Source: a candidate division WOR-3 bacterium (GTDB taxonomy: Bacteria; Hydrothermota; Hydrothermia; LBFQ01). From it: a stretch of 64,000 bases of DNA. The stretch covers positions 8,506 to 72,505 of the forward strand of contig JALUCS010000126.1 of NCBI GenBank assembly GCA_027050205.1, read 5' to 3'. Both the position numbers and the translations under genes were made by a program. Shown in pieces: positions 2,196 to 44,376 of this stretch. The notes beneath the pieces were generated by a model that worked only from the letters and a program-made list of their open reading frames with translations, was not told the origin of the DNA and made no database searches. Numbering within the stretch: the first letter of the stretch is position 1; each line of letters begins with the position of its first letter.

Positions 2196-2337
2196 AACGA
2201 GTCTATTCTAAGGACGTGTCGGTGTAAGGGGGCGGAACCGACGAATACACCCTCCAAACCGCTGATTGTTCCTATAAGATAGAACAATTGCGTACGGCCG
2301 CCCTACGCCGCCCCTATTGCTCCGCTTAAGGAGAGCA

Positions 2338-4692
2338 TCACCTCACTACGACGAACTTGCCCGTTGCCGTCCCCCTCTCCGTCATCACCACTACGAAGTA
2401 CAGCCCTTCGGGTAGGTTGGAGATGTTCAGGCTCAACTCCGTCTCCCCTACGCTTATGTTCCTGGTCACCTTCTCCTCCCTTACGAGGTGGCCGGAGGCC
2501 GAGTATATGCGGATGGCCACGTAGTCGGCCGGGTAGGGACTCTCAACGACTAAGGTTATACGCCTGTGCCTGGACTTTGAGTAGGGGTTGGGATAGACCT
2601 TCGCCACCCTCATCCGTGGGCCTGTAGGCTCCACCTCAAACGGCTCGGCCGTAGCGAGGGCGTAGGCGTCGGGCATTCCGTACCCCGTCAGGTAGTTGGG
2701 CGTCGGATAGCCGGGGAGCTGGGAGGCTGTCTCAAGGAGCTTCCGCCGGAGCTTGGCGACGTCCCACGATGGATGGACCTCAAGGGCGAGGGCGAGGGCG
2801 CCCACCGTCAGGGGCGTGGAGTAGGAGGTCCCGGATACGCTCACGAGGGGGAAGGAGTCGTCCACCGCCACCACCGTGAAGGGGGCAGCCACCTCCGGCT
2901 TCACCCGGCCATCCGCGGAGGGGCCGAAGGCAGACCGGTTGGCCGGGAGCCACCTCCCGGAGACGGAGTCCCATATTACGCCGCTAACCGCCACCATATC
3001 GTAGGCGTCGGCGGGGGCCGTAAGCGTTGTGTCCCCTACGAGGGGGTCGGGCAGGGGCCTGTTTCCGACGTTCCCCATGGCGGCGACCACCAAAAGGCCG
3101 TACTTGAGGGCCTGGGAGACCGCCCGTGAGGAGACGGCCGTCCGGCCGTCCATCATATCCTTCGTGTATCCGAGGTCCGCCCCGTAGCCCAGGCTGATGT
3201 TGGCTATCTGCACACCCCGACGCACCGCCCACTCCAACGCTGCTACGAGGAAGTCCTCCTCTATGCGGTTCTCCCACACCACCCCCGTATCCGTACGGCC
3301 CACCTTCTCCGTCTTGGCGAGGTAGTAGGTCGCCCCCGGCGCCACCCCGATCAGCCTCCCCTCAACGTACCCGGCCAGGACGGAGAGGACGCGGGTACCG
3401 TGGTACCGGCCTATCCCGTACTCCGGGGCCTCCGCAACCGTGTCCCCCCTGGCCCGGAAGACCAACCTATCCCCGAAGAAGGTGGGTTTGTCGCACGAGG
3501 TCCACCCGTAGGTGCCAAGGAGGTTGCCGAGGGTGTCGTACACCTCTATACGGTCGGGGGAGGGTACCGCCACCTCCGTACCGTTGAAGGCCACCTCCGT
3601 GAGCATAGGGGCGGAGGCTACGGGTCTCCCACCGACGAAGGCCGTATCGTTCCTGACGTAGGCCACCTTACCGCCGGCGTATACGGGACGGAAGCCGGGA
3701 AACAGGGGGGTGGTACCGCTGCGGGTCATCATATAGACCGTATCCCCGTCGGAGAAGAGTAGGGTATCCCCCTTTAGGTGCATCCCCCCGAAACCCTCTA
3801 CCCTCTTACCCCTCCAGCACTCTATGGAGGATATTGCTCTATCGTAATAGCACAATTTTACGCTGTCCCCAGTGAAGGCCCCCAACGTGAGGGTGTCGGG
3901 TAGGGTGTCTAAGACGGCCATCTGGTAGCCGGTGAAGGTCCTTATGTCCTTTACAGTATCCTCCACCGTATCCACGGTGGCGAGGTGTAGGGTTCCGAAG
4001 CCGGAGGTCCATGCTACGAATATGCTGTCCCCAAGGAGGGCCAGCGAGGGGTTGTACTCGTACCCCATCTGGACGTTCCTAAGGCTCCACGAGCTGTCCT
4101 CGTTCAGGACGTACAGATAGAGGTTCCACGCCCGCGTGTTCGTTCCCTGTAGGGCCTTCTCGTCGGCACCGGAGTAGATGCAGAGGAAGGAGGAGGACAG
4201 GGGGAGGCAGTCGTAGGAGTGGACGTAGAAGGGTATGGGAACGGGGGGAGGGATCTCCCTGTCCTCCAACATCAGGCGGTCCCCACTGTTGAAGTCCATC
4301 TGACCGCCCACCTTAACGCCGAAGAGGGCGGGGTTGTTCAGGTCAAAGCCCGTGTCAAATATCCCGACCTTTACCCCCTTGCCGGTTATACCCAGCGAGT
4401 GGAGGGTGTCGGCCCTTACGGCCTCTACCTGCCGTTTGGACTCCCCGTAGGAGTAAGAGGAGATACCAATATTGCTACTGTTAAGCGGAACAATATTCCC
4501 GGAGCGTTTCACCCTGTACGTAAGGACGGGTACCCCCTCCGGGTTGAGGCGGAAGCCCCTCGGACTCTTCCCTTCCGCGAACCAGTAGAAGGAGAAACGT
4601 TCGGTTAGGGTGGATTTGGTCCTCATATAGAGGGAGTAGGCCTCCGCGTAAGGTACGTCGCTCGCCCTAAGGGACACCCAAAGAGGTACCAT
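2338..4692 (-). CDS. S8 (subtilisin-like) serine peptidase with a large insertion and a T9SS-like C-terminal domain
   Basis: Catalytic motifs VGIFDTG, YHGTRVLSVLAG, AAMGN and SGTSYSTP. C-terminus VYPNP...IRIYSASGHLV...NLPEGLYFV...KFVVVR. Start moved from 4818 to ATG 4692, which has TATAAT 7 nt upstream and avoids overlap with the divergent gene. Confidence 0.9.
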   Translation of the reverse strand: MVPLWVSLRASDVPYAEAYSLYMRTKSTLTERFSFYWFAEGKSPRGFRLNPEGVPVLTYRVKRSGNIVPLNSSNIGISSYSYGESKRQVEAVRADTLHSLGITGKGVKVGIFDTGFDLNNPALFGVKVGGQMDFNSGDRLMLEDREIPPPVPIPFYVHSYDCLPLSSSFLCIYSGADEKALQGTNTRAWNLYLYVLNEDSSWSLRNVQMGYEYNPSLALLGDSIFVAWTSGFGTLHLATVDTVEDTVKDIRTFTGYQMAVLDTLPDTLTLGAFTGDSVKLCYYDRAISSIECWRGKRVEGFGGMHLKGDTLLFSDGDTVYMMTRSGTTPLFPGFRPVYAGGKVAYVRNDTAFVGGRPVASAPMLTEVAFNGTEVAVPSPDRIEVYDTLGNLLGTYGWTSCDKPTFFGDRLVFRARGDTVAEAPEYGIGRYHGTRVLSVLAGYVEGRLIGVAPGATYYLAKTEKVGRTDTGVVWENRIEEDFLVAALEWAVRRGVQIANISLGYGADLGYTKDMMDGRTAVSSRAVSQALKYGLLVVAAMGNVGNRPLPDPLVGDTTLTAPADAYDMVAVSGVIWDSVSGRWLPANRSAFGPSADGRVKPEVAAPFTVVAVDDSFPLVSVSGTSYSTPLTVGALALALEVHPSWDVAKLRRKLLETASQLPGYPTPNYLTGYGMPDAYALATAEPFEVEPTGPRMRVAKVYPNPYSKSRHRRITLVVESPYPADYVAIRIYSASGHLVREEKVTRNISVGETELSLNISNLPEGLYFVVVMTERGTATGKFVVVR

Positions 4693-4765
4693 AGACGCTA
4701 TTATATTTCCGGAGGGTAGTCGGAATACGTCCCCGTCCGTCCCCGCCGTATAATAGTGCGACCGT

Positions 4766-5863
4766 ATGTGGCTACTTCTCCTTACCGCCACCTCTTCCGA
4801 CAGCCTCTTGGTGCGCACAATGAAGCCGGAGATAGAGAAGGTTTTCGTTCCGCCTCCGGACTACACCCTGAACCCCGGCGACCGGGTCCTCATAACCGCG
4901 TACTCAAAGGAGGTCTCCATAGTCCAGTACGAGACCTTCGTAGATAACAACGGCCTCCTACCCCTTGAGATATCCCCCCTCTCCCGCCCTACGGCCGTAA
5001 AGGTCAAGGGGCTGACCATAGACTCCGCCCAGAAGGTCCTCCTAAAGGCCTACAGGAGGTTCATCCCCTCCGTCGGGTACGTGTCCCTCCAGCTCATAGC
5101 CCCCTCCAAGTTCTACGTCATACTCCGGGGGAACTTTGACCCCTCCCTCAACGGCTTCCTTCAGGTCAACGGCCTTACGAGGCTCTCCGACCTCGTTTGG
5201 AAGAAGGGGAAGGCCCTCCCTTACTCGGCCTTCAGCCGGGTGGTTGTCAACGGCGATACCTTCAACCTCTGGAGGTACCTCAAGGAGGGGGACATAAGCC
5301 AGAACCCCCTGCTCAAGGCCTACGATACGGTATTTCTGGATAGGACGGACTCCGTCGTCTATGCCGTCGGGGACTTCTCCAAGGGGAACTACTGGACGAT
5401 AGAGTGGGAGCCGGGGGATAGGGTCCACGACCTCGTCCTTAAGCTCCAGCTCGCCCGCCGTCTCTACACCCTGCGGAGGGTCCTCATAAACGGCCGGGAG
5501 GCCAACTTAAACACCCCCCTGCACGTCGGTGATACGGTTAGTTTTGACTTCGCCATTCCCTACGTCCTCGTCCTCGGAGAGGTCGTCAAACCGGGTGGGG
5601 TGGAGTACGCCCCCCACAAGACCGTCCAGGACTACATAATAGAGTCCTACGGTTTCGGCGAGAGGGCCAACCGCTGGAACATACGGGTGAAACATCCGGG
5701 GAGTACGAAGTTGGAGAGGGTCTCCCTGGACTACAGGCCCGGTCCGGGGGACGTAATAATCGTCGGCACTACCCTCCTGACCTTCAGGGACCTCGTCTTC
5801 CTCGGCCCCTCCATCGTATCAACGGCCGTCCTCGTCTATACTACCTTCTTCTCAAAGCGTTGA
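4766..5863 (+). CDS. Polysaccharide export protein with SLBB domains (Wza/KpsD-like)
   Basis: DYTLNPGDRV (Poly_export), VLVLGEVVKPGGVEY and PGDVIIV (SLBB), C-terminal amphipathic helix. Confidence 0.8.
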   Translation: MWLLLLTATSSDSLLVRTMKPEIEKVFVPPPDYTLNPGDRVLITAYSKEVSIVQYETFVDNNGLLPLEISPLSRPTAVKVKGLTIDSAQKVLLKAYRRFIPSVGYVSLQLIAPSKFYVILRGNFDPSLNGFLQVNGLTRLSDLVWKKGKALPYSAFSRVVVNGDTFNLWRYLKEGDISQNPLLKAYDTVFLDRTDSVVYAVGDFSKGNYWTIEWEPGDRVHDLVLKLQLARRLYTLRRVLINGREANLNTPLHVGDTVSFDFAIPYVLVLGEVVKPGGVEYAPHKTVQDYIIESYGFGERANRWNIRVKHPGSTKLERVSLDYRPGPGDVIIVGTTLLTFRDLVFLGPSIVSTAVLVYTTFFSKR

Positions 5864-6587
5864 AGAGGCGGTGGTAGAGGGGCGTTAGCCTTGAGGGTAA
5901 GGTTAAGGCCACATCCACCAAGGCGTAGAGGGACAGGAGCTTGTGCCTTAATGTCAGGTCGGGGAGCATAACGGGTATCCTCGGTACGTGCATCCTACCG
6001 AAGGACCTTCGGCAAGAGGGACCGGCGAATCCCCAGCGGTACCCCACCTCTGCGGCTACGGATAGCACCTTCCTATTATATATATTAAAAGGATAGGCAA
6101 CGGCGACCACCTCCTCACCGAGGAGGTCCTCAAGGTACTTCTTGGAGTACTCCAACTCGTAGCGGAGTTGCCGGTCGGGTAGGGTGGTCAGGGAACGGTG
6201 GGAGACCGTGTGGGAGCCTACGAGCCAGCCGGAGCGGTGTAGTTCTATTATAGCGGAACGATCCATGTGCCTTACGGGTATACCGAAGTGAGCGTCCCAC
6301 AGGTTCCGCTTGCCAACGAAGTCGGTGATGACGAAGACGGCTCCCTTTACACCCATCTCCTCCATTATCGGGAAGGCCCACCTATGGACCCCCTCAAGGG
6401 CGTCGTCAAAGGTCAGGAGGAAGGCGTCGTAGGGTAGGGGGAAGCGAAGGGCCTTGGGGTCCATAGGGCGAAAGCGGTTGAGGAGGAAGGAGAGGTGCCT
6501 TCGGAAGAACTTCGGGGGTACCCAGTTCCCCGAAAGCCTAAGGTAGGGGGAGACGTCGTGATAGGCGAAGACGAGGGGGTACCTCAC
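5841..6587 (-). CDS. Polysaccharide deacetylase (NodB/CE4)
   Basis: YHDV, LTFDDA, GSHTVSH and AYPF motifs. Confidence 0.9.
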   Translation of the reverse strand: MRYPLVFAYHDVSPYLRLSGNWVPPKFFRRHLSFLLNRFRPMDPKALRFPLPYDAFLLTFDDALEGVHRWAFPIMEEMGVKGAVFVITDFVGKRNLWDAHFGIPVRHMDRSAIIELHRSGWLVGSHTVSHRSLTTLPDRQLRYELEYSKKYLEDLLGEEVVAVAYPFNIYNRKVLSVAAEVGYRWGFAGPSCRRSFGRMHVPRIPVMLPDLTLRHKLLSLYALVDVALTLPSRLTPLYHRLFNALRRR

Positions 6588-6874
6588 GGTGGGTATTGTA
6601 CGGTGGAGGGGTTTTGGGCCGGGGTGGTTATTTGTATTATATCAATATTTTCATAATACGACTAATTTTACTGTTTGATGGTATTTTAGTGTTAAATTGC
6701 AACATTTTAATACAAAGATTTATTTATATGTATAGATAATATAGTTTCAATAAATTGTATAATAATTTTACTTTTTGATAGAAAAGTATTCGTACAACAC
6801 TTAAATATCACACTCCCCACAAACGATTTCCAACCTTTACCCCCACCGGAGGCCGGCCGTATAATATCGCAGGT

Positions 6875-7540
6875 ATGGCCGTATTCAAGAGATTGGCGGA
6901 TATCCTTAGGGCGAACATAAACGCCCTGTTGGAGAAGGCGGAGGATCCGGAGAAGATGCTCAAGCTCATCCTATCCGATATGGAGGAGGCCTTGAGGAAG
7001 GCCACGGTGGCGACGGCCCAGGCCGTGGCCAACGAGAGGCGGCTGAAGGCCCAGTACGAGCGGGCGAAGGCCCTCGCCGAGGAGTGGCAGAGGAGGGCGG
7101 AGGAGGCCCTTAAGTCCGGGGACGAGGCCCTCGCTATGAAGGCCCTCAAGAAGAAGGTGGAGTACGAGGAGAAGGCCGCCCGGTACGAGGAGGCTTACAG
7201 GGAGGCTCACGAGGTCTCCGAGAGGATGAGGGACCAGCTGGAGAAGCTCAAGGCCAAGCTTGAGGAGGCTCGGACGCGGTATACGACCCTCATATCCCGG
7301 AAGAAGGCCGCCGAGGCGCAAAAGACCTTCGCCCAGTACTCCGGTACCTTCGGGGGTGAGGTCTTCTCCAAGTTTGATAAGATGGAGGATAGGATCCTCC
7401 GGGAGGAGGAGGAGGCCAAGGCCCTCGCAGAGCTGTCCGGCGATACCCTTGAGGACGAGTACGACGAGCTTATGAAGGAGAAGAAGGTCCAGAGCGAACT
7501 TGAGGCCCTCAAGGAGAAGCTCGGCCTGAAGGGAGGGTAG
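6875..7540 (+). CDS. pspA: PspA/IM30 family protein
   Basis: MAVFKRLADILRANINALLEKAEDPEKML, long coiled coil, FDKMEDRI. Confidence 0.93.
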   Translation: MAVFKRLADILRANINALLEKAEDPEKMLKLILSDMEEALRKATVATAQAVANERRLKAQYERAKALAEEWQRRAEEALKSGDEALAMKALKKKVEYEEKAARYEEAYREAHEVSERMRDQLEKLKAKLEEARTRYTTLISRKKAAEAQKTFAQYSGTFGGEVFSKFDKMEDRILREEEEAKALAELSGDTLEDEYDELMKEKKVQSELEALKEKLGLKGG

Positions 7541-7545
7541 GGGAG

Positions 7546-7992
7546 ATGAAGGTGAAGATAGTTCCCGGTACGAACGAGAGGCTCCTGCAGGAGGTCAGGG
7601 GGAAGGTCAGGGATTACCTGAAGGACATAGTTGGGGACTTCGTGGAGATGGACGGCATCTTCTCCTTCACCTACGGGAGCGTCACCGTCAACGTTGAGGT
7701 TGTCCCTTGGCACAGTGAGGACGTCTTGGTCAAGGTCTTCTCCTACATAGCAGAGAACGTCTCCCTATCCGAGGAGCTTATGGCCACCCTCCTTGAGATG
7801 AACGCCCGCTTGCCCCTCGGAGCCTTCGCCCTCGGTATGGACAACAGCGTCGTGTTCCGGTACGCCCTCGCCGGGGCCAACCTGAACTTCAACGAGCTCC
7901 TTGCCGCCGTCTATACCGTCGCGACCGTTGCCGACTCCTACGATGAGTTCGTAAAGGGCTACAGCGCGGGGATGGAGAGGAGGCTGGACTGA
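7546..7992 (+). CDS. YbjN/T3SS-chaperone-fold protein
   Basis: Size and pattern YGSVTVNV...LLEMNARLPLGAFAL...ATVADSYD are typical of YbjN-like domains. Confidence 0.65.
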   Translation: MKVKIVPGTNERLLQEVRGKVRDYLKDIVGDFVEMDGIFSFTYGSVTVNVEVVPWHSEDVLVKVFSYIAENVSLSEELMATLLEMNARLPLGAFALGMDNSVVFRYALAGANLNFNELLAAVYTVATVADSYDEFVKGYSAGMERRLD

Positions 7993-7993
7993 T

Positions 7994-8590
7994 ATGGGTA
8001 CCGTATTGCTCCTATTAACCGTAGCAATACTTCTCCTCCTCGTCGGCGTACCCGTATACCTTATATATCTATATAACAACCTCGTCCGGAAGAGGCAGCT
8101 GGTAAAGGAAGCCTGGAGCGGCGTTGAGGTGCAGCTGAAGCGCAGGGCCGACCTCATCCCCTCGTTGGTAGAGGTCGTAAAGGGGTACGCCAAGCACGAA
8201 AAGGAGATATTTGAGAAGATAGCCGAGGCGAGGGCGAAGAGCCTCGGAGTGGGGAGCATCGCCGAGAGGGGTAGGGCGGAGGGGGAGCTAACCCGTGCCT
8301 TGAAGAGCATAATAGCCCTCGCCGAGAAGTACCCGGACCTCAAGGCCAATAAGAACTTCCTTGAGCTGCAGAAGGCCTTAACGGACGTAGAGGACGAGCT
8401 ACAGCTCGCCCGCCGATACTACAACGCCACCGTGAGGGAGTACAACACGGCTATACAGATGTTCCCGGCCGTCCTCATAGCCAGGAGTATGGGCTTTACG
8501 CCGGAGGAGTACTTTGACCTTGACGTAGAGGCCTTCAGGAGCGGGGAGGACGCCGTTCAGCAGCGGAGGAGGCCGAAGATAGAGTTCTGA
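7994..8590 (+). CDS. lemA: LemA family protein
   Basis: N-terminal TM, YNNLV...AWSGVEVQLKRRADLIP...YAKHE...AEKYPDLKAN...ARRYYN. Confidence 0.95.
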   Translation: MGTVLLLLTVAILLLLVGVPVYLIYLYNNLVRKRQLVKEAWSGVEVQLKRRADLIPSLVEVVKGYAKHEKEIFEKIAEARAKSLGVGSIAERGRAEGELTRALKSIIALAEKYPDLKANKNFLELQKALTDVEDELQLARRYYNATVREYNTAIQMFPAVLIARSMGFTPEEYFDLDVEAFRSGEDAVQQRRRPKIEF

Positions 8591-8595
8591 AACGG

Positions 8596-8623
8596 GTTGC
8601 ACATAAGGTATCTTATGTTAACT
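8596..8623 (+). other. dif: dif site (XerC/XerD chromosome dimer resolution site)
   Basis: GTTGCACATAA-GGTATC-TTATGTTAACT. 11-6-11 architecture; arms differ from E. coli dif (GGTGCGCATAA / TTATGTTAAAT) at 2 and 1 positions. Intergenic. Confidence 0.85.
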
Positions 8624-8632
8624 AACCTTTCA

Positions 8633-8671
8633 GGGAGGGACGGGGGCGGTCAAGAGACCTCTGCCCCTCCC
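8633..8671 (+). terminator. GC-rich hairpin downstream of lemA and dif (possible terminator)
   Basis: GGGAGGG...GGTC-AAGA-GACC...CCCTCCC stem-loop; no U-tract. Confidence 0.35.
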
Positions 8672-9378
8672 TCCATCTACCGTTGGCATCAAACTTTCCG
8701 CAATCGCTCCGGCCCCTATTGTTCCGCTTTACAGAATCTACAACCCCCGACCCCGATTTAGCGAAGGGTTGGTCGCCCTGTCCCCTACCCTAACGCCGTT
8801 ACCTATATGCCGTTTTAGGTACGTCTCCCGGACCCGTGGGGTTCCTAAGGTTCTACGGATTCGTAGATGAGAATACCGGTGCAGTCTTAGATCCAACGTA
8901 ACAGTCCTTGATGCGAATAAATCGCCCGTTGGAGGGCCGGGAAGTAATACCGTAGGGTTCAAACCTCGCCCAACCGCACTTTTATTCGTAGTACCCTACC
9001 CTAATTCAGAAACCTCCATCCAACGCCGTCGGGGAACATCCCCAAACTCCACGGGGCCGGCTTTCGTCAAGCATCAAGTTCCATACGACATAGCCCGAAT
9101 CTTATCGGGGAAACCGGCAACAACACCCATGGGACCGCCCGCCGTTTGATAGGGACTCCTATTCGTCGGTTCCTACTTTGATCAAACTGGGATAACCCAA
9201 GGGCGACTTCGGGGACGTCGTCTGTTCCCTTACGTACCGCTTAAGCGGATCTATGTGTTATTGATACGCTAAACCGGAACAATAATCACTCCGGCGAAAT
9301 GGTTTCCGTTGGATCAAGTATTGCTCCTATTAAATAGAACAATACCCAAGACGCCGCCCTCCGTATAATCAACCCGCT

Positions 9379-10620
9379 GTGAGGGGCTTCGTACTCTACC
9401 TTATACCCGTCCTCGCACTCCTATACTCCCTCTCCCTACCCCCCGTAGGCCAGCACGACCATTCCCTCCTCCTGATACACCTGCAGGCCCTCGGCCTCCT
9501 GAAGTACTCCTCCCATCCCCCTACCCTACCCATTTTAGTTAGGGCGGTCTACGAAACCTTAGGGGCGGATTACCAGGTGGTTAGGCTCCTCGCCATACTC
9601 TCCGCCTCCCTCCTCCCCCTTTCGGCCCTCCTCATAGGTAGTCGTCTCGGTAAGGGCGTAGGGCTGTGGGCCTACCTCCTGGCTCTAACGAGTCCCCTCT
9701 TCCTCATCTACGGAAAGGCTCCTCTGTACGCCCTCTTCGGTTTCTCCTTCGGTGCCTTCGCTCTCGCCCTCCATACGAGCGGGAGGCCTCTCCTGGCCAA
9801 CCTCATATCTGCCGTCGCCCTAATCCTGGACTGGACCTCCATCCCCCTCGTCCTCCCCGTCCTCTACGATACCCTCAAAAGGCGAAGGCCTCTCCTCCTA
9901 CTCTACCTCCCCACCCTCCCCATATACGCCCTGTGGGTGGCAGACTTCTCAACAGTAGCCGGCGGGGAGTTCTCCCAGAGGCTACCGTCCCCCCAATCCC
10001 TCCTCCTGTTGGTGCCGGTGGTGGCGTTAAGATTGCTCCTATTTACCGGACCTATAACCCTCCTCGGCATCCTCCACCTCTCCATCCGCCGTACGAGGCT
10101 ACCCCGCTTCCTCCTCCGGTACCTCTACCTACAGCTCGCCTTCGTACTCCTATGGGCGAACTTTTACGTTTATCATACCCCCTACCTCTTCAACCTCCTC
10201 CCCCTTTTGGCCGTAGCCGGGGCGTTGGGAGTTGTAAGGATGGGCGTTAGGCTCAAGGCTTCGCTATTAACCCTTTCCATCATCTACTCCGCTGCTCTCA
10301 CCTTCCTCCTCCTCTATCCCTACAGGACGTTCGCCGCCTCGGATGTGGGTTGTATATTACTACGCTTAAGCGAATCAAAAGCGGGGGCGAGGTACGTCCT
10401 CCCCGAAGGCGGCCGACCCCCGAAGTCCCTCAAACTCCTCCTCACCCTCCTACCCCCCGACGACTCCTCCCCTATAACCGTATCCTTCGGACCGAAAGGG
10501 AGACGCCCCATCGTGTTGTACGGCGATACCGTATCAATAACCGGCTACGGTACGGTCAGGTGCCGAGGGGATACGGGACGGATAGACCGACTATTACTCC
10601 GCTTAAAAGGAATTAAGTAG
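9379..10620 (+). CDS. Polytopic membrane protein, probable GT-C glycosyltransferase (ArnT/PMT-like)
   Basis: About 10-11 hydrophobic segments; HPPT loop motif followed by ..VRLLAILSASL; GTG start 9 nt after TATAAT. Confidence 0.6.
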   Translation: MRGFVLYLIPVLALLYSLSLPPVGQHDHSLLLIHLQALGLLKYSSHPPTLPILVRAVYETLGADYQVVRLLAILSASLLPLSALLIGSRLGKGVGLWAYLLALTSPLFLIYGKAPLYALFGFSFGAFALALHTSGRPLLANLISAVALILDWTSIPLVLPVLYDTLKRRRPLLLLYLPTLPIYALWVADFSTVAGGEFSQRLPSPQSLLLLVPVVALRLLLFTGPITLLGILHLSIRRTRLPRFLLRYLYLQLAFVLLWANFYVYHTPYLFNLLPLLAVAGALGVVRMGVRLKASLLTLSIIYSAALTFLLLYPYRTFAASDVGCILLRLSESKAGARYVLPEGGRPPKSLKLLLTLLPPDDSSPITVSFGPKGRRPIVLYGDTVSITGYGTVRCRGDTGRIDRLLLRLKGIK

Positions 10621-22887: not shown

Positions 22888-23184
22888 TTACCCTATCCCG
22901 TACTTGCTCAGGTAGGCCTTCACGAGGAGGTTGAAGAACTTCGTGTGTTTCCCGTCCATCAGCTTAAGATGCACCAGCTCGTGTACTATCACCTCGTGGC
23001 GGAAGCGGGCGGGTTGCTTGAGTAGGTCGCTGTTTAAGGTGAGCCTTCCCCTCGTTGAGACGCTCGCCCACTTCCGTTTCATCGGCCTCACGTGTATCTC
23101 CTTCAACCTGTCCTCAACCCCTATCCTCCTCGCCCACGTCCAGACTTCGGCGATGAGAATGTCCCGCATTACGTCCTCACTCAT
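22888..23184 (-). CDS. Short YgjP/M48-like zinc metallopeptidase associated with type I R-M
   Basis: MKRKWASVS...VIVHELVHL...HTKFF; overlaps the end of hsdR. Confidence 0.8.
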   Translation of the reverse strand: MSEDVMRDILIAEVWTWARRIGVEDRLKEIHVRPMKRKWASVSTRGRLTLNSDLLKQPARFRHEVIVHELVHLKLMDGKHTKFFNLLVKAYLSKYGIG

Positions 23185-26077
23185 CCGCTATCCTCCTTAG
23201 CAGGTTAAGGATGTCGTTTGCCCATTCAACCCTGTCCTCTATACCTGCCCCTTTGAGGACCTTGTAGAGCCTCCTGCGGAGGCCTCCCTCCTGTCGGGCG
23301 CTCTTACTCCAATAGGGGAACTCCTTCAGGGCCTCGTCTATACCGAGGGCGAGATCTTCGGAGGTATGGGGGTCCAACCCCTTGTGGAGCCGCAGCCACC
23401 ACTTTACGGCGAAGGCACCGTTGGAGAGGTGGGTTTCCCCCATCTGCCTCTGGGCCTCCTTTATCTCCCTTACGAGTTTCTCCAGCTCCTTTAGGGCCTG
23501 CCTGCTGTTTATCTGCCTCTCCTCAAAGGCCTTCCTTATCCTCTCCGCCCTCTCCCCTATGGGTATGAGGAAAGGTTTCTCCTTCCCCTCCTCCGCCACC
23601 ATCCGGGCTATGGTGTTGAGGAGGTTAAACATCCTGACGGTTTCGGGTTTGTGCCTGGCGGTTAGGAGGGACTCAAGGGTTTCGGGGGTTATCTCGTAGG
23701 TCTCTTTAAGGAGGTTTAAGGTTGGGGTACGGGTGTGCCTCTGTACGATTTCGGCTGTCTTTCTAAGGAAGGACTTATCAACATCAACCGAAGGCTCGTA
23801 GGCGCTTCGCAGGATCCTGTACATCTCAACGAGTTTCCTGTAGTCGTCCAAGAAGGGACGGAGGAAGGGGTCGGGGGATAGCACCTCGTAGAGTTCTTGG
23901 AGTTCGCGAAAGAACCTATAAAACTCCTCCCTCAAGGGTTTATCCTTGAAGCGTTGGAGGATGGCTTCGGCGACCCTGTCCGGTTCGTTGGGATCAAATA
24001 CGGGTAGGTACTCCTCCCTCCCCACTCTTATGAGCTCCTCAAAGCGCTCCTTCAGGACGTCTATTCCCTCAACTATTCCCTTGATGTCCTCCGAGTCAAA
24101 GGCGAGGGCCTTTTCAAGGTTGTCAAATATGCCTACGAAGTCAATTATGAGTCCGTTGGTCTTCCTACGTCCGTCTTCGTCCTCGTACGGGCGATTCACT
24201 CTGGCAATGGCTTGGAGGAGGACGTGGTCCCGCATGGGTTTGTCAAGGTACATAGCGTAAAGGATCGGGGCGTCGTATCCGGTCAGGAGCTTCTCCGTGA
24301 CTATGAGAATCTTGGGGTTTTCGTCGGGCTTCCTGAAGGCCTTCCTTACGCGGGTCTCCTCCTCGTCGCTTAGGTGGTAGCGTTTCAGATGGGGAGGGTC
24401 GTTGTGGTTCCGGCTTATTACGACCTCGCTGTATTCAGGGGGCAGGTACCTGTCCAAAGCCTCCTTGTAGAGGACGCACGCCTCCCTATCCACGGCCACA
24501 AGGAAGGCCTTGTACCCCATAGGTTCAACGTTGCTTTTAAAGTGTTCGGCCACAAAACGGGCGATCTTCTCAACTCTTTCGCTGTTTTTGAGCATATTTT
24601 TGAGATTCACCGCCCTATCCAACACCCGGTTTATCTCCTCTATATCGGCCACACCCTCAAGGGCGGCGGCCTTCCAGAACTCCCTCTCCATCGTCTCCCT
24701 ATCCACGACCAACTCGTTTGGGGCCATCTGGTAATGGAGGGGAACGGTGGTCCCATCCTCTATAGACTCCTTTATGGAGTACTTGTCCAGATAACCCCTC
24801 GGAGGGTCATCCACACCGAAGACCTTGAAGGTACCCTTCCCCCTACTCGTCTTATCTATCGGTGTCCCGGTGAAACCTATAAACGTGGCGTTGGGAAGCG
24901 CCCCCATAAGGTAGTTTCCGAGGTCCCCGCCCGTTGATCTGTGAGCCTCGTCTATCAGGACGATGATGTTGGAGCGGGTGTTCAGGTTGGCGTCCGCTTT
25001 ATCAAACTTATGGATCATAGAGACTATCAGGCCGCGGGTGTCCCTCTTGAGGAGTTCCCGGAGGTGTCTTTTGCTCTTGGCAACGTGGAGGTTTCCGAAA
25101 CCGACGGCCTCAAGGTTCTGGAAGAGCTGCTGCTGGAGTTCGTTCCTGTCCACTATCATAAGGACGGTGGGGTTCTTGAAGCGGGGGTCCTCCAGTATAA
25201 GTCTGGCGGCGGTTATCATCGTGTAGGTCTTCCCGGAACCCTGTGTGTGCCATACGAGTCCCCTACGCTTTCCGCGGTCACTGGCCCTCCCTACGACCTT
25301 TCCGACGGCCCTCATCTGATGGGGACGGAGGACCACCTTGGACAGCTCCCCGTCCCTCCGGACGAAGAGGATGTACCTGCCGAGGATTTCAAGGATCCTC
25401 CTCCGGGATACGAAGGCCTTGACGAGGGTCTCAAAGTCCCCGGCCTGCTCGTCTCTGTAATTGAACAGGGCTTTACGGGAGAGGTTCCACGTGGGGCCGT
25501 AGAGGAAGCGGTGGAAGTCTGTAATTACGTATATTTGGCTCTGTACCAGAAGCTCCGGAGCCTCGTCGTGGTACCGTCTTATCTGCTCATGGGCCTCCCC
25601 TATGCCCTCAACCTTCGTAGGGGCCTTGGCCTCAAGGACCACAACGGGGATGCCGTTGACGAGGAAGACGATGTCAAGGCGAACGGTGGAGGTTCCACTG
25701 ACGAAGCGGAACTCCTCGGTTATGTGGAATACGTTGTTCTCCGGAACCTCAAAGTCAATAAGGCGTACGTTCTTCTCCCTTTTCTCCTCCTCAACGAATA
25801 CGGTCTTAAGGCCCCTCAGGTACTCCCACACCTCGTAATTTCCTTCAACGTTGGGCCTCACCCTTACAAGTCTGTCTATCACCTCTTCGGCCTTCGTCCG
25901 GTTTACTATGGCAGTGGGGTTGAGTTTCTGAAGTTGCTCTATCAGAATGCTCCGCAGTACGGGACTACTCTCCCCTCCCCGTAGCCTAAGGGCCTCATCC
26001 GGAGGGAGGTACCTCCAACCCACCTCCTGGGTGTGGCGGATTATAGGTTCCTGAACGGTCTGGCGTTCGGAGAACAT
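23177..26077 (-). CDS. hsdR: Type I restriction endonuclease subunit R
   Basis: Nuclease motif DIVFLVNGIPVVVLEAK...QIRRY, HTQGSGKT, DEAHRS, FTGTP, LLTGYDAP, QAIARVNR. Confidence 0.95.
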   Translation of the reverse strand: MFSERQTVQEPIIRHTQEVGWRYLPPDEALRLRGGESSPVLRSILIEQLQKLNPTAIVNRTKAEEVIDRLVRVRPNVEGNYEVWEYLRGLKTVFVEEEKREKNVRLIDFEVPENNVFHITEEFRFVSGTSTVRLDIVFLVNGIPVVVLEAKAPTKVEGIGEAHEQIRRYHDEAPELLVQSQIYVITDFHRFLYGPTWNLSRKALFNYRDEQAGDFETLVKAFVSRRRILEILGRYILFVRRDGELSKVVLRPHQMRAVGKVVGRASDRGKRRGLVWHTQGSGKTYTMITAARLILEDPRFKNPTVLMIVDRNELQQQLFQNLEAVGFGNLHVAKSKRHLRELLKRDTRGLIVSMIHKFDKADANLNTRSNIIVLIDEAHRSTGGDLGNYLMGALPNATFIGFTGTPIDKTSRGKGTFKVFGVDDPPRGYLDKYSIKESIEDGTTVPLHYQMAPNELVVDRETMEREFWKAAALEGVADIEEINRVLDRAVNLKNMLKNSERVEKIARFVAEHFKSNVEPMGYKAFLVAVDREACVLYKEALDRYLPPEYSEVVISRNHNDPPHLKRYHLSDEEETRVRKAFRKPDENPKILIVTEKLLTGYDAPILYAMYLDKPMRDHVLLQAIARVNRPYEDEDGRRKTNGLIIDFVGIFDNLEKALAFDSEDIKGIVEGIDVLKERFEELIRVGREEYLPVFDPNEPDRVAEAILQRFKDKPLREEFYRFFRELQELYEVLSPDPFLRPFLDDYRKLVEMYRILRSAYEPSVDVDKSFLRKTAEIVQRHTRTPTLNLLKETYEITPETLESLLTARHKPETVRMFNLLNTIARMVAEEGKEKPFLIPIGERAERIRKAFEERQINSRQALKELEKLVREIKEAQRQMGETHLSNGAFAVKWWLRLHKGLDPHTSEDLALGIDEALKEFPYWSKSARQEGGLRRRLYKVLKGAGIEDRVEWANDILNLLRRIADE

Positions 26078-26082
26078 GATCT

Positions 26083-26943
26083 TTACCCCTTCTTATGCCT
26101 TGTGTTATCAAATAAGTTTGGCTCATTTTCTCGCATTTTTAAATAAATATTGGTGTATGGTCTCCCTTCTTCATCAGGGAAACCCCATAAATTAAATTTC
26201 CTACGCCATCTATATTGATCTTTTCTGACCCATCGCACTATAAATGACGCTAATTCTCTTTTTGCTGGTTTTCTCACTTTATTTAATAAAGCTGCTTGAG
26301 TTGAACCTATCAATAAATCAGTAAACTGTAGTAAATCATCATCTGAAGAGTCTTTAGGCACCACTTTTAATATTACTTCAGGATAATTCCCTTTCTCCTC
26401 CTTCTGTAGAATGCTATCATATCTTGCTCGTTGTTGTATGTATTTCTCAAAATTATCAATTATACTACGATTCTTTTTATCTGTTATAAAAGTTATCTCT
26501 AATCTATCATATTCGTTTTCCTGAAGTATATGCCAATTAATACCAGCTTTTAACGCCATAGCAGTAAAACGATTGTACTCGTGAAAATCTTTTGGAAATC
26601 TGCTATGTTCGTAAGCACTACTATAACGATCTACAATGAGACAAGAAAAATTTGCAATCTCTGACAAACGTTGGCGAAATTCTATCATCCATTTTTTAGC
26701 TATTCTTGCTTTTGCACCATATTTACCTGAAAAGGATTTAGGTAATTCCTTAAAATGAATTTCTCTAAAGTAGTTTTCCTCCTCCCTTACCCTATACAAA
26801 ATTTTGCGTGCAATATCAATATCATGACTTTTTATAAATAGCAGACCTATAATTAACCATCGTTTCTCTGGGAGACTTTCATCATGAAAAACATGATACT
26901 TCCCTACTTTCACGATTTCATTGCCCCAAAAATCTCGTTTCAT
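26083..26943 (-). CDS. DUF3800-like (RNase H-like fold) protein, AT-rich
   Basis: VFHDES...EIHF...DSSDDDLLQFTDLL motifs. Confidence 0.7.
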   Translation of the reverse strand: MKRDFWGNEIVKVGKYHVFHDESLPEKRWLIIGLLFIKSHDIDIARKILYRVREEENYFREIHFKELPKSFSGKYGAKARIAKKWMIEFRQRLSEIANFSCLIVDRYSSAYEHSRFPKDFHEYNRFTAMALKAGINWHILQENEYDRLEITFITDKKNRSIIDNFEKYIQQRARYDSILQKEEKGNYPEVILKVVPKDSSDDDLLQFTDLLIGSTQAALLNKVRKPAKRELASFIVRWVRKDQYRWRRKFNLWGFPDEEGRPYTNIYLKMRENEPNLFDNTRHKKG

Positions 26944-26944
26944 C

Positions 26945-27034
26945 CTAACTTTTGATCAAATAATATCCCCACAATCTCCTCCCCTCATCGTCCTCCATCT
27001 CCTCAATCACCCCCGGAACCAAAATCTCCAACAT
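26945..27034 (-). other. 29-codon ORF or gene remnant with a host-type promoter
   Basis: MLEILVPGVIEEMEDDEGRRLWGYYLIKS*; TATAAT 10 nt upstream; ends 1 nt before the DUF3800 start. Confidence 0.3.
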
Positions 27035-27112
27035 CGCTACCGCTATTATACAGCCGAACCGTCGCCCTCAAACTGCCTCAAAGCTCTTCGCCTATGAATA
27101 TGCGGCATAAAC

Positions 27113-28333
27113 CTATCGTTGGAGAGTGGAAAATATATCTTCACAACCCTTAACCCTCCTTTCATAAAATTCTCTCTCAAAATATTCATCCTTAAGGTCA
27201 TTTATAGGAACATATACTTCAACTGGAATACTTGCGTTTTTAAGGTAATTTACCATCACAGGACCAACCTGCTCCCATTTCAATCCCCCAAGACCACACC
27301 CAAGGGCGGGGAAGGCTATTGATTTAACCCCTTCCCTCCTGTAAAACTTCAAAAACCACTTCAAACCCTCACATATCATCTTGAGATTGCTCTTTTCCTT
27401 CCAGTGCCTTTTTGTAGGAAAGAATAGGAACCACCTTTCGCCGTTAAGGCTCTCCGGCTTATAAAGGTAGGGCCTCCCTGGTCTTAATATTTTCCTTTTT
27501 ACGATGTTTTGATACACCAGAAAGGCTGCCGGGTACATGTACTTAAAACGGCTTGCCAAACCCTTTCCCATAACACCGACAGTGTTGACGCTTATAGTTA
27601 ATGTTTGCATCTCGCTATCAAACATATCACCTTCCACTATGTAAAGGTTTGGATAAATTTCCACTTTTCTGCGAGGTTCAAAGAATAAATCGGGGTCAAC
27701 AATAATTTCTATACCTTTAGGTAATTTTCCCACCATTCGTAAAACTTTTTTCTTCATATCTTCGTTAGGTACATAAATAGCCCGTATGTACTTTTTAGGC
27801 ACCCTCTTGGGGATTAAGACCTCGGACTGTAGAAAGGTCTTAGGGAATAAGTACTCCACAGATGGGAATGGGAGCTTGCTTTTCTTAATAAAAGGTTTTA
27901 TGTTTATTATGGCTTCACTTGAATACCAATCCCGTATATCTCGCACCTTCTCAAAGAGTTTTGTTAGATATACATCTCCAGAATCCAATAGAATTGAATA
28001 ATCACTCGCAGCGTTACCTATGGAAACTTTACTTCCACTTCTTTCGGATACTGTTGCATCTACGCCTATCACGAGTAGTTTATTCTTGCGCTTTTTTGAT
28101 AGTCTATACATCATAGCGTTCCTTGGATAGACGTAGAGATTCGCATATTTACTTAAACCCTTTTTTCTTCTTTTTTCAACTATCCCCTCATCTGCTATAT
28201 CTATAAAATTCAAACCAAGTTTTTCAACCTCATCACGGCTCAAAATACCTGAGCGAAGTATAGATTCCAGATTCTCAATTCCCGTAATATAGTACAGTTC
28301 CCTCCTTCGGTCTCGCCTTCTTGCCTTTCTCAC
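27113..28333 (-). CDS. DarT (DUF4433 DNA ADP-ribosyltransferase)-macrodomain (DarG-type) fusion
   Basis: N-half: LYYIT.IENLESIL..GILS, DIAD..IV..R, YANLY..PRNAMMY, GNAAS, QSEVLI. C-half: GDMF...VNTVGVMGKGLA..FK...FPTK.HW...SIAFPALGCGLGGL.W. Confidence 0.88.
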   Translation of the reverse strand: MRKARRRDRRRELYYITGIENLESILRSGILSRDEVEKLGLNFIDIADEGIVEKRRKKGLSKYANLYVYPRNAMMYRLSKKRKNKLLVIGVDATVSERSGSKVSIGNAASDYSILLDSGDVYLTKLFEKVRDIRDWYSSEAIINIKPFIKKSKLPFPSVEYLFPKTFLQSEVLIPKRVPKKYIRAIYVPNEDMKKKVLRMVGKLPKGIEIIVDPDLFFEPRRKVEIYPNLYIVEGDMFDSEMQTLTISVNTVGVMGKGLASRFKYMYPAAFLVYQNIVKRKILRPGRPYLYKPESLNGERWFLFFPTKRHWKEKSNLKMICEGLKWFLKFYRREGVKSIAFPALGCGLGGLKWEQVGPVMVNYLKNASIPVEVYVPINDLKDEYFEREFYERRVKGCEDIFSTLQR

Positions 28334-29625
28334 ACCAGCCCCTCCATGTTGTGTGCTAACTTACCCACCAACTCCTTAGGTATCCTCCTCTTCGCTGTCA
28401 TCAAGTCGTTGAGCAGAGCTTTAAAAACCTTTTCCAACGCCTCCGCTCTCCTCCTCTCGGCCTCTATTTTGTCATCTACGGCCTTCAGTATCTCGGCTAT
28501 GCGTTTCTGCTCGTGGAGAGGGGGAAGAACTAAAACCTGTTCTCGTAATATGCGATAATGACGATTATAACCTCTACTTGGAATTTTAAGATTTAGTAAG
28601 GCATAATAAAGGAAAAGAGGGAAGTATTTTTCGGTATTAGGTATTAAAATTTTAGTACCATCAGCTCCACGTACAAAGGGAAAATCTACGTACTTAAATA
28701 TACGAGTATGATCTCCAAAAACTATCACCGGAAGCGGTCCATAATAGACATCATCTTCGTTATTCCAGTATCCAGCGATTAGATTCTGCCCCTGATCAAC
28801 AATAGGGAATCGCCCCACTGGGAGGTAATTTTGCTGTTTAACTTTGCTAGTTTTTATTCTTTTTTTAAGTATAGCGTCCTCAAACCTCACCACCTCCCAG
28901 TGTTCCGGTATATCTCCCACCTCCGTTTCCTTCAACTTCACTTTATCAACCTCACCGAGAGGCACAGGGCCGTAGGTGAATAGGTGCTTCATCAAAGACT
29001 TCTTGAGTTCCTTGAGAGCCTTTATAACCTCTTCCGTCTTCTCCTTCGCCTCCTGCACAGCCCTTAAGATGTAGGCGATGGCCTTCTGCTCCGGAATCGG
29101 GGGGAGGAGGATGGGAAGAGTTTTTATCCGAGACAAAGCCAATTTAGGTTGCGAAGTTTTAGTAGTTTGTGATCTTATGTACATCTGCCCCATTGGACTA
29201 GCCAAGAAAAATATAAGAAAATTTTGGTCAAGGGATTGAGACAAAATCACAATTCTTGCGGCATTTTCTGTAAGGTGCGCCCCATCCAATTCATCCGGAA
29301 TTCTTCCAACAATACCTATAGTTCCTGCAATTGAAATATAAACATCCGATTTTTTAATATGATAGCGCTGCAAAAGGCGATGTTGGTCCTCAGTTAGGTA
29401 TTTCAAGTTATCCGTAGTTATTGAGAAATTCCTAAAATTTACCACACGGATATACGGATATTTAGTAGGACGCTCTGAAAATTTTTGCCCTTTAGGTAAG
29501 CGTTTCCCACCTTTAACCTCTACCACCTCCCCCAACCTCACCACCTCCCACTCCTCCGGTAAAGGCCCCAACTCCGTCATTCTGTAGCCGGGCGGTACAT
29601 CATCCGTATTTGCTACTCTGCTCAT
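28330..29625 (-). CDS. hsdS: Type I R-M specificity subunit S
   Basis: Two TRDs, each preceded by PE.WEVVR and followed by LPP..EQK.IA.IL helices; the TRDs are AT-rich and the conserved regions GC-rich. Confidence 0.95.
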   Translation of the reverse strand: MSRVANTDDVPPGYRMTELGPLPEEWEVVRLGEVVEVKGGKRLPKGQKFSERPTKYPYIRVVNFRNFSITTDNLKYLTEDQHRLLQRYHIKKSDVYISIAGTIGIVGRIPDELDGAHLTENAARIVILSQSLDQNFLIFFLASPMGQMYIRSQTTKTSQPKLALSRIKTLPILLPPIPEQKAIAYILRAVQEAKEKTEEVIKALKELKKSLMKHLFTYGPVPLGEVDKVKLKETEVGDIPEHWEVVRFEDAILKKRIKTSKVKQQNYLPVGRFPIVDQGQNLIAGYWNNEDDVYYGPLPVIVFGDHTRIFKYVDFPFVRGADGTKILIPNTEKYFPLFLYYALLNLKIPSRGYNRHYRILREQVLVLPPLHEQKRIAEILKAVDDKIEAERRRAEALEKVFKALLNDLMTAKRRIPKELVGKLAHNMEGLV

Positions 29626-29674
29626 ACGGACACCTCCTCCTTATCCACACTGCGGATTATAAAGGCGGAGGGCG

Positions 29675-30034
29675 TTATAGATCATCCTGCCATCCCTCGT
29701 TCCATATCACACCTTCAAGCTTACGCTCAAGTTCGGGTATGTCATCCCTCACCGTCGCCCATAACACCCCAACATCCACACCGAAATAGAAGTGTATCAA
29801 CTTATCCCTCGTCCTGGCTATTATGCTCCACTCAATTTCAGGATATTTTTCCTTCAATTCGGAAGAAACCTTCTTACTCGCTTCCCCCAGAATCTCCAAA
29901 TTTCTGACAACGGCGTCTATAGTCCTCTCGTCCCTTAGAAAGTCCTTAAATCGCATACCCTCGGTATACTCCAAGATCTTCCTACACGCTATCAGCATAT
30001 CAAGGACAAATTCCCTATCTCCCCTTTTATACAT
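29675..30034 (-). CDS. hepT: HepT-like (DUF86, HEPN) RNase toxin
   Basis: DAVVRNLEILGEA...P.IEW...RDKLIHFYFGVD (RX4HXY). Confidence 0.9.
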   Translation of the reverse strand: MYKRGDREFVLDMLIACRKILEYTEGMRFKDFLRDERTIDAVVRNLEILGEASKKVSSELKEKYPEIEWSIIARTRDKLIHFYFGVDVGVLWATVRDDIPELERKLEGVIWNEGWQDDL

Positions 30035-30329
30035 ACTCCAGTTCCTTCTTTATCGCTTCTCTTACGTGTCTTATGCGTATGTTCTCCACTCCGTAAGGCG
30101 TTAGTAGGTCCACTTCCCTTTTGAACAACCTCTCAAGGAAATCGGCGAGGCCTATGAAATCCTTCAAATTTCCCCTGCGGTCTTCAAACTCAACAACAAT
30201 ATCAATATCGCTATCCTCCCCCGCCTCCCCTCGCACTACGGAGCCGAAGATCCCTATCCTCTTAACCCCGAACTTCCTTATCTCCTCGTAATTCTCCCTT
30301 ATCCGCCTTATGATCTCCTCCTTATCCAC
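30027..30329 (-). CDS. mntA: MntA-like minimal nucleotidyltransferase antitoxin
   Basis: FGSVVRGEAGEDSDIDIVV (GSX10DXD), VDL. Confidence 0.9.
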   Translation of the reverse strand: MDKEEIIRRIRENYEEIRKFGVKRIGIFGSVVRGEAGEDSDIDIVVEFEDRRGNLKDFIGLADFLERLFKREVDLLTPYGVENIRIRHVREAIKKELEYV

Positions 30330-30569
30330 ACTGCGGATTATAAAGGCGGAGGGCGTTCTACAGGGGAGGGTGGTGTCCGATATATGTCCGTTAATAGGTT
30401 AGAATGTAGTATCTCTTATTTTTCTCTGCTGTGGCCTTAGATAGTCCTTTTACAAATATCTAAAAATAATTCCAATAATTGAAATTTACAATTTCTAGGC
30501 TTTTTTGGATACCTCTCTTAAACTCTATCATCCGATTTTAATTTTTAGAACACCAAATGTTAAATATTC

Positions 30570-31639: not shown

Positions 31640-32047
31640 TCATCTGAGAACCACATAAACGTAATAGGGTGGTTTCTCCTTGATGTCGCGTGGTTTCTCA
31701 ATGCCAACATCGCCCTCGTCCAGGATATCCATCAGAATGCTTTCGGCATAGTACCGGATAAGTTCGTCTTCAACCTCGTGGGCATAGCGTAGACTGGTCG
31801 TCCTATAAACCACCACGGCCTTATCAAACTCCCCCGCATATCGGGGAAGCTCCTCCTCCGGGGATGATGTCCGGCCTACGTACATCTGAAGGTAAAGGTT
31901 AGAATTTATAAGCCGGGTGATGCGACGTTTTATCTTCGGGAGGACCTCTTTAGGACGGCCGGTATAGATGGAGTAAATCGTCGGTATGTATCTTGTGCTT
32001 GCAAAGGCTATGAGGATGGCGAGAAATTCTTCAAACGTCAGCTCCAT
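31640..32047 (-). CDS. Hypothetical protein with a GIY-YIG-like core
   Basis: MYVGRTS.PEE...VVY.T...AHEVEDELIRYY. Start at ATG 32047, 6 nt after TATAAT. Confidence 0.45.
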   Translation of the reverse strand: MELTFEEFLAILIAFASTRYIPTIYSIYTGRPKEVLPKIKRRITRLINSNLYLQMYVGRTSSPEEELPRYAGEFDKAVVVYRTTSLRYAHEVEDELIRYYAESILMDILDEGDVGIEKPRDIKEKPPYYVYVVLR

Positions 32048-32096
32048 ATGTGCATTATAAGACCGACTGTCGAGTAGAAGACCCCCCCAAGGCCGT

Positions 32097-32120
32097 ATTG
32101 CTCCGGTATACCGGAGCAAT
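32097..32120. repeat. Perfect 24-bp palindrome, distal copy of the ATTGYTC-N10-GARCAAT motif
   Basis: ATTGCTCCGGTATACCGGAGCAAT. Confidence 0.8.
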
Positions 32121-44157: not shown

Positions 44158-44181
44158 ATTGCTCCGCTATAATAGAGCAAT
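44158..44181. repeat. Distal copy of the ATTGYTC-N10-GARCAAT motif
   Basis: ATTGCTCCGCTATAATAGAGCAAT; its spacer is identical to that of the reverse-oriented copy at 6239. Confidence 0.75.
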
Positions 44182-44376
44182 TTTTAATTTTAATCCGTAT
44201 TACCGAAATAATACCAAAATTCGTACAGAGCCACATAAGGGGTTGGAATCCATTCCGGCAGAAGACTCGGATGCTCCCTATGGCCTTTATTCTGCACCAA
44301 TGACTCCTCCGTTGCACTTCCCTTTGCAACCGGTGGAGGTTTTCAACTTTACCCCCCATAAAATACCCACGATGGG

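What the first reader, a model, noticed from the sequence alone, without database searches (positions are those of the whole stretch)
2265..10616. Unrecognised 24-bp palindrome concentrated around dif: candidate terminus-organising (matS/Ter-like) site system
Seen: ATTGTTC-CTATAAGATA-GAACAAT (2265), ATTGCTC-CGCTTAAGGA-GAGCATC (2316), ATTGCTC-TATCGTAATA-GCACAAT (3833), ATTGCTA-CTGTTAAGCG-GAACAAT (4471), reverse ATCGTTC-CGCTATAATA-GAACTAC (6239), ATTGCTC-CTATTAACCG-TAGCAAT (8005), ATTGATA-CGCTAAACCG-GAACAAT (9260), ATTGCTC-CTATTAAATA-GAACAAT (9320), with weaker copies at 8718, 10032, 10356, 10593 and possibly 9231. Spacing is always 10 nt and the spacer is itself patterned (usually Y-N-N-T-W-W-A-N-N-R). 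About half the copies lie inside unrelated coding sequences (S8 protease, deacetylase, lemA, GT-C) as AT-rich patches. About 12 copies fall within ~8.4 kb around dif, whereas I found only two in the other ~53 kb (32097, a perfect palindrome, and 44158). Established: dispersed intragenic palindromes that mark chromosomal domains include matS/MatP, Noc and SlmA sites, and parS; this motif matches none of those consensuses as I know them. Inference: binding sites for an unknown dimeric protein that organises, protects or segregates the terminus, or arrests forks or unloads SMC there.
Basis: partly seen in the sequence, partly recalled or inferred. Interest (0 to 1): 0.88.

Follow-up and report, generated by a model that had tools for sequence, protein, structure and literature searches.

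The report
New palindrome array marking chromosome terminus
A 24-base palindromic DNA site is packed, even inside genes, around the point where chromosome copies are unlinked in one order of uncultured heat-loving bacteria, and it likely docks a still unidentified protein that manages the chromosome end during division.

Summary
All 14 listed copies are there. With a relatives-built or combined matrix, 12 copies lie within 7 kb of dif against 3 in the other ~2.04 Mb, and FtsK-orienting octamers flip polarity at this dif. The array follows dif, not genes: five congeners have it, and so do 5 of 5 genomes of the sister genus, whose dif has mostly other neighbours. The second family of the order carries fewer copies. 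A phylum-wide scan hit 11 of 12 order genomes and 1 of 139 others. All 7 intragenic copies use improbable synonymous codons, and one congener has lost the sites. It is not matS, Ter/Tus, parS, a dif-arm copy, a hairpin, a MITE or a regulon. ScpA/ScpB and MukBEF were not found, so SMC unloading is unlikely. Best reading: docking sites for an unknown dimeric terminus protein that works like MatP. The binder was not found; nine candidates were tested, eight fit poorly and one winged-helix orphan remains a weak lead. Earlier scan notes describe similar dif-centred arrays with other motifs in gut Bacilli and Clostridia (unchecked).

The parts
8596..8623 (+). dif (XerC arm left, XerD arm right), the centre of the array
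   Evidence: octamer polarity flip; XerC and XerD genes elsewhere in the genome
2265..2288 (.). site, intergenic (DUF4476 gene / S8 protease)
2316..2339 (.). site, at the 3' end of the S8 protease gene, 51 bp from the previous one
3833..3856 (.). site inside the S8 protease gene; a congener keeps the peptide but has lost the site
4471..4494 (.). site inside the S8 protease gene; kept in G002 and G004 with changed amino acids
6239..6262 (.). site inside the polysaccharide deacetylase gene
8005..8028 (.). site inside the 5' end of lemA, about 590 bp from dif; at the orthologous place in G002, G004, G005, G006
8718..8741 (.). site about 120 bp beyond the XerD arm of dif
9231..9254 (.). weak possible site (12.9 bits)
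9260..9283 (.). site, intergenic
9320..9343 (.). site, intergenic, upstream of the membrane-protein gene 9379-10620
10032..10055 (.). site inside gene 9379-10620
10356..10379 (.). site inside gene 9379-10620
10593..10616 (.). site inside the 3' end of gene 9379-10620
32097..32120 (.). outlying perfect palindrome, 23.5 kb from dif, at the edge of a defence island
44158..44181 (.). outlying site 35.5 kb from dif, with a weak neighbour at 44189

Best explanation
The 24-bp palindrome forms a dense array within about 7 kb of dif and is likely bound by a lineage-specific, still unidentified homodimeric protein that would hold and position the sister chromosome termini until FtsK and XerCD finish unlinking them, as MatP does on matS. 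Shown: the motif, its symmetry, its confinement to dif, that it follows dif across different gene neighbourhoods, selection on the DNA letters inside genes, its restriction to one order, and its loss in one congener. Inferred: protein binding, the dimer geometry (conserved 7-bp arms plus a conserved T/A core), and the role in cohesion or positioning. These genomes appear to lack Smc-ScpAB, MukBEF and topoisomerase IV, so the dif zone may carry more of the final unlinking load (inference).
For: Confinement: 12 sites within 7 kb of dif against 3 in about 2.04 Mb. The dif is real; octamer polarity also flips in relatives, 25/5 against 0/24 in the genus and 16/7 against 9/17 in the sister genus. 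Congeners' dif loci hold 11, 10, 8, 5, 3 and 0 sites. A de novo dyad search recovered the motif in the window as a control and found it again around dif in the sister genus: 8, 8, 5, 8 and 8 sites, among genes whose orthologs in this genome lie on other contigs without sites. Genome-wide, 16 of 20 pattern matches in those five genomes lie within 6 kb of dif (the pattern came from those sites). G017, read almost whole (1.61 Mb), has 4 sites above 20 bits (0.5 in shuffles), all on one contig whose genes lie 2-8 kb from dif in three congeners. Seven of 7 intragenic window sites were matched by at most 1 of 5000 synonymous recodings. 44 of 77 sites in relatives are intragenic, with no consistent excess pairing between arms. 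Phylum scan: 11 of 12 order genomes, 1 of 139 others. In Vibrio, matS density peaks at dif and sets terminus cohesion (PMC11564523, passages).
Against: No binding protein was identified, and no protein tested matches the motif's distribution. The array (about 14 kb) is far smaller than matS macrodomains (546-659 kb in Vibrio). Congener G003 keeps dif and the gene order but has no sites, so the system is dispensable there. In the second family the link to dif is thinner: 0-2 sites on the dif stretch in 6 of 6 genomes, with other copies on contigs not shown to abut dif. All assemblies are fragmented, so outliers cannot be placed. ZapA was found in only 2 of 5 genomes and not in this one, so a Z-ring tether is not shown. 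The absence of topoisomerase IV rests on motif counts in two genomes.
Confidence: 0.55

Rival explanations
1. Replication fork trap: the sites bind an RTP- or Tus-like protein that stops forks near dif.
For: Sites flank dif on both sides. The dif-distal half-site scores higher in 57 of 93 sites, and the sister genus has seven tandem pairs at exactly 25 bp. An orphan 124-aa winged-helix protein of MarR-like shape exists in the second family, a size and fold like RTP (recalled).
Against: Polarity is inconsistent: 4 of 12 in this genome, 10 of 11 in G002, and the sites are not independent. No Tus hit. Known Ter sites are asymmetric and more widely spread (recalled). The winged-helix protein was not found in this genome.
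Confidence: 0.15
2. Accessory sites for Xer recombination: a bound protein shapes, gates or shields the dif synapse, for example against mobile elements, or recruits a topoisomerase there.
For: Weak copies lie 65-120 bp beyond the XerD arm in three genus members, and one overlaps dif in G016. Only one GyrA and one GyrB-type motif match were found per genome.
Against: Most sites are 0.6-6 kb away, too far for cer/psi-type accessory DNA (recalled). The motif does not resemble the dif arms (best 1.9 of about 14 bits).
Confidence: 0.12
3. A second centromere: a parS-like cluster at the terminus that loads a ParB-type clamp.
For: The cluster size is like that of parS clusters (recalled). A ParB-domain gene sits directly beside dif in three genomes of the second family.
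Against: That gene is missing from all 7 genomes of this genus and present in families without the motif. This genome has one ParB and a canonical parS on the dnaA contig.
Confidence: 0.06
4. Operators of an ordinary transcription-factor regulon that happens to sit near dif.
For: The outliers at 32097 and 44158 both begin 47-48 bp upstream of a start codon, and several copies are in promoter-type gaps.
Against: Half the sites are mid-gene, and the genes differ between genera while the distance to dif is kept. The perfect outlier in G004 lies between convergent genes. The shared TetR and Rrf2 proteins are also in the site-less congener.
Confidence: 0.07

Closest known systems
matS/MatP (E. coli, Vibrio cholerae)
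   Same: Palindromic sites, often inside genes, confined to the terminus, with density peaking at dif (PMC11564523 passages).
   Different: 24 bp rather than 13 bp and a different sequence (0 matS matches). The array spans about 14 kb, not hundreds of kb. No MatP or MukFEB hit.
XDS/XerD (Bacillus subtilis)
   Same: Terminus sites distinct from dif; XerC and XerD are present here.
   Different: XDS serves to unload Smc-ScpAB (PMC11894783 passages), which was not found here. The motif is unlike the dif arms. The primary paper was not held.
Ter/Tus and Ter/RTP fork traps
   Same: Sites of 23-30 bp around the terminus (recalled).
   Different: Symmetric with no consistent polarity; no Tus hit; RTP not searched directly.
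ZapT (Caulobacter)
   Same: A terminus-biased binder, with sites mostly within ORFs (PMC7188993 passages).
   Different: ZapT has no consensus motif and spans about 0.9 Mb. A MerR protein is present also in the site-less congener, and ZapA was not found here.
parS/ParB
   Same: A tight cluster of palindromes marking one chromosomal locus.
   Different: Lies at dif. The canonical parS and dnaA are on another contig.

Membership tests
matS/MatP | 13-bp matS consensus (recalled) | tested here: not met
   0 matches in the genome
matS/MatP | MatP and MukBEF homologs | tested here: not met
   No phmmer hit at E<=10 for E. coli MatP, MukF, MukE or MukB; single-sequence queries, genome 93.5% complete
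matS/MatP | Sites restricted to the terminus, peaking at dif, many intragenic | tested here: met
matS/MatP | Macrodomain formation or sister-terminus cohesion | not testable with these tools
   Needs Hi-C or microscopy
Ter/Tus or Ter/RTP | Polar sites oriented oppositely on the two sides of the terminus | tested here: inconclusive
   Distal half stronger in 57 of 93, but 4 of 12 in this genome
Ter/Tus or Ter/RTP | Tus homolog | tested here: not met
   Best E 0.11
Ter/Tus or Ter/RTP | RTP homolog | not tested
   RTP family not searched; no true PadR in this genome
XDS/XerD | Smc-ScpAB present as target | tested here: not met
   ScpB 0 of 19 order genomes, ScpA 0 of 5
XDS/XerD | Site resembles a Xer-binding arm (recalled) | tested here: not met
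parS/ParB | 16-bp parS consensus near the origin | tested here: not met
   The perfect parS is on the dnaA contig C93, with none in the array
parS/ParB | A second ParB-family protein co-distributed with the motif | tested here: not met
REP/MITE-type repeat or RNA hairpin | Shared flanks or arm covariation | tested here: not met
   No shared flanks among non-orthologous sites; arm pairing p 0.99, 0.67 and 0.025; no Rfam match

The most novel reading that the evidence does not exclude
An independently evolved terminus-marking system: a 24-bp site and a lineage-specific (possibly winged-helix) protein that build a compact, about 14-kb dif-centred domain. It would do the last step of chromosome segregation in thermophilic bacteria that lack condensin and topoisomerase IV, which would make dif-centred landmark arrays a recurrent, convergent feature of bacterial chromosomes.
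Probability: 0.4. Interest if true: 0.85.

Novelty: new variant of a known kind. Interest (0 to 1): 0.7.

Why it matters
Dedicated terminus systems are known from few lineages: MatP/matS, XerD/XDS, ZapT, Tus and RTP (reviewed in PMC11894783; PMC7188993). How other bacteria manage the terminus is open. Here is a sharply defined, order-wide site with a natural loss lineage (G003), in genomes where no condensin was found, so the site must do something other than remove SMC. The 24-mer is a ready bait for finding the protein, and the intragenic copies can be recoded silently for a clean test.

Tried and rejected
(EM motif finder) failed its positive control and was discarded. The pattern was mis-spaced and is not used. 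An exact scan of the species-representative genome collection gave 37 rows (36 loci; one is listed twice), nearly all single copies without a convincing dif; records of this genome or very near ones may have been left out. One Paceibacterota contig had 4 copies around a TrpR-like gene, but no TrpR was found in the order. Binder candidates that fit poorly: the ParB-domain gene beside dif in the second family; PadR; TrpR; InsA-like zinc-ribbon/HTH ORFs, multi-copy and patchy; TetR; Rrf2; MerR; a 205-aa orphan HTH protein upstream of lpxK, in 12 of 12 family genomes including G003, 0 of 4 second-family genomes, and with no fold match; and a 114-aa TPR-like orphan present in G003. A 124-aa orphan winged-helix protein downstream of miaB in G017 stays a weak lead: G013 E 1e-37, G007 3e-4, G002 3e-3 (wing only), and not found in G000, G003, G006 or G016; its own fold had pLDDT 50. 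The shared proteins of G000 and G017 were screened by eye, not fully by HMM; part's output was cut. De novo dyad search found no comparable motif at dif in the other families or in G003. Half-site clusters occur on C126 and, weakly, C6, not at the dnaA contig. Paper searches listed no description of this motif; a search of the literature for the motif's letters is still open.
Full report
Observation. The 14 listed copies are at the stated places. A symmetric matrix built from them gives 13 hits above 20 bits in the 2.05-Mb genome, all in the window, against 0.33 in locally shuffled genomes. A matrix from 38 sites of relatives ranks the same 14 first; this is partly circular, since those sites were found with the window matrix and some are orthologous. 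Twelve sites lie within 7 kb of dif and three elsewhere. The motif has conserved 7-bp arms, a variable inner flank and a conserved central T/A core, 23 bits in all (alignment A2).

The landmark. dif at 8596-8623 is the one good match of 11 dif-like places. The FtsK-orienting octamer (recalled consensus) runs 21 forward/1 reverse to its left and 18/39 to its right. XerC and XerD genes and ftsK are present. A perfect parS and dnaA lie on another contig, C93, so this is the terminus and not the origin. GC skew gives no clean signal here. No call names the organism. Earlier notes call it an uncultured hydrothermal-vent bacterium; I read a reverse gyrase by eye and guess phylum WOR-3, which is inference only.

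The array follows dif. dif was located in relatives and up to 10 kb on each side fetched. Congeners hold 11, 10, 8, 5, 3 and 0 sites. Because they share gene order, I ran a de novo dyad search; it recovered the motif in the window and found an AT-richer form around dif in the sister genus, with 8, 8, 5, 8 and 8 sites within 6 kb. There dif is flanked mostly by other genes, whose orthologs in this genome sit on other contigs without sites. Genome-wide, 16 of 20 pattern matches in those five genomes are within 6 kb of dif. In the second family all 7 genomes carry the motif but only 0-2 copies on the dif stretch. G017, read almost whole, has four strong sites on one contig whose genes lie 2-8 kb from dif in three congeners. 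Eighteen dif or putative dif loci from other families gave 0 hits with the sister-genus matrix and 2 single hits with the window matrix. A profile scan of 151 genomes of the phylum hit 11 of 12 order members and 1 of 139 others; of the order hits only G015 contributed no site to the model.

Selection acts on the DNA letters. For 7 of 7 intragenic window sites, at most 1 of 5000 recodings with the genome's codon usage reached the observed score; the five sister-genus sites tested gave p from <0.0002 to 0.009. Site 4471 is kept in G002 and G004 while the amino acids change. G003 keeps dif, the gene order and the peptide under site 3833, but not the site, which points to secondary loss. Arms pair no better than randomly re-paired arms in two groups and only slightly better in the third, flanks are not shared and Rfam is silent, so hairpin RNA and MITE readings fail. 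44 of 77 sites in relatives are intragenic and one perfect outlier lies between convergent genes, against a regulon. The two window outliers do share a promoter-like offset.

Mechanism. A symmetric 24-bp site under letter-level selection is best read as a homodimer's binding site (inference). ScpB was found in 0 of 19 order genomes (5 of 22 outside), ScpA in 0 of 5, and MatP, Tus and MukFEB gave no hits. One gyrase-type motif match per subunit was seen in each of two genomes. SMC unloading therefore has no apparent target. Half-site asymmetry is inconsistent, which weakens a fork trap, though seven exact 25-bp tandem pairs in the sister genus suggest cooperative binding. In Vibrio, MatP delays segregation according to local matS density, which peaks at dif, independently of the divisome (PMC11564523, passages). 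I commit to a MatP-like role, holding or positioning sister termini until FtsK-XerCD unlinking (0.55). Rivals are a fork trap (0.15), a Xer or topoisomerase accessory (0.12), a regulon (0.07) and a second centromere (0.06). Some terminus-linked protein-binding role is about 0.85 likely.

The binder was not found. ParB-like, PadR, TrpR, InsA-like, TetR, Rrf2, MerR and two orphans fit the distribution poorly. A 124-aa MarR-shaped winged-helix orphan of G017 has an ortholog in G013 and a weak full-length match in G007, but none in this genome, G006, G016 or G003. I give it about 10%.

Known systems. It fails membership of matS/MatP, XDS/XerD, parS/ParB and Ter/Tus on the features tested; RTP was not searched. 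Papers: PMC11894783, PMC7188993, PMC11564523 and PMC12542636 were seen as passages. Karaboja 2021 was not held and is known to me from that review and recall. Searches listed no description of this motif; a search by its letters remains open. Earlier scan notes report dif-centred arrays with different motifs in gut Bacilli and Clostridia; I did not check them beyond the PadR lead, which failed here. Verdict: real, conserved, order-specific, a new variant of terminus landmark arrays, with the mechanism inferred.

Noticed in passing
L026:10055-10834, L028:4458-5249, L029:10043-10834: A ParB N-domain protein gene sits directly beside dif in three genomes of the second family. Orthologs occur in the sister genus and in two other families, but not in this genus.
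   Followed up: partly
L103:1289-8568: A Paceibacterota contig with four or more copies of a similar perfect palindrome, three of them around a TrpR-like gene (Pfam E 5e-4).
   Followed up: partly
G000:C93:46549-47877 (L136): DnaA matches the ATPase family, but its C-terminal part matched only generic HTH models and not the DnaA C-terminal family.
   Followed up: no
G000:C91:3267-3881 (L148): A single-copy, very basic three-domain helical orphan upstream of lpxK in 12 of 12 genomes of the family; no Pfam or fold match.
   Followed up: partly
G000:C123:5516-5860 (L072): An IS1 InsA-like zinc-ribbon/HTH ORF directly after parB; four related copies in the genome, at varying places in relatives.
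   Followed up: partly
window 31640-32050 (-): An orphan 136-aa ORF that looks GIY-YIG-like by eye, with no Pfam hit, at the edge of a low-GC defence island (type I restriction, DarT-Macro, PIN; 23177-31601).
   Followed up: no
window 8626-9378: About 750 bp of non-coding DNA beyond dif with no similarity elsewhere in the genome or the fetched loci and no Rfam match.
   Followed up: partly
window ~32180-32410: The flank downstream of the 32097 site matches a dispersed intergenic repeat on C115, C93, C104 and C22.
   Followed up: no
class-wide: ScpB was found in only 5 of 41 genomes (two families), so most of this class appears to lack Smc-ScpAB.
   Followed up: partly
L033:1-1500: A CRISPR-like direct-repeat array (about 21 copies) lies right next to dif in G023.
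   Followed up: no
L241:6277-6648 (-): An orphan 124-aa winged-helix protein downstream of miaB in G017, with very few relatives in large protein collections.
   Followed up: partly
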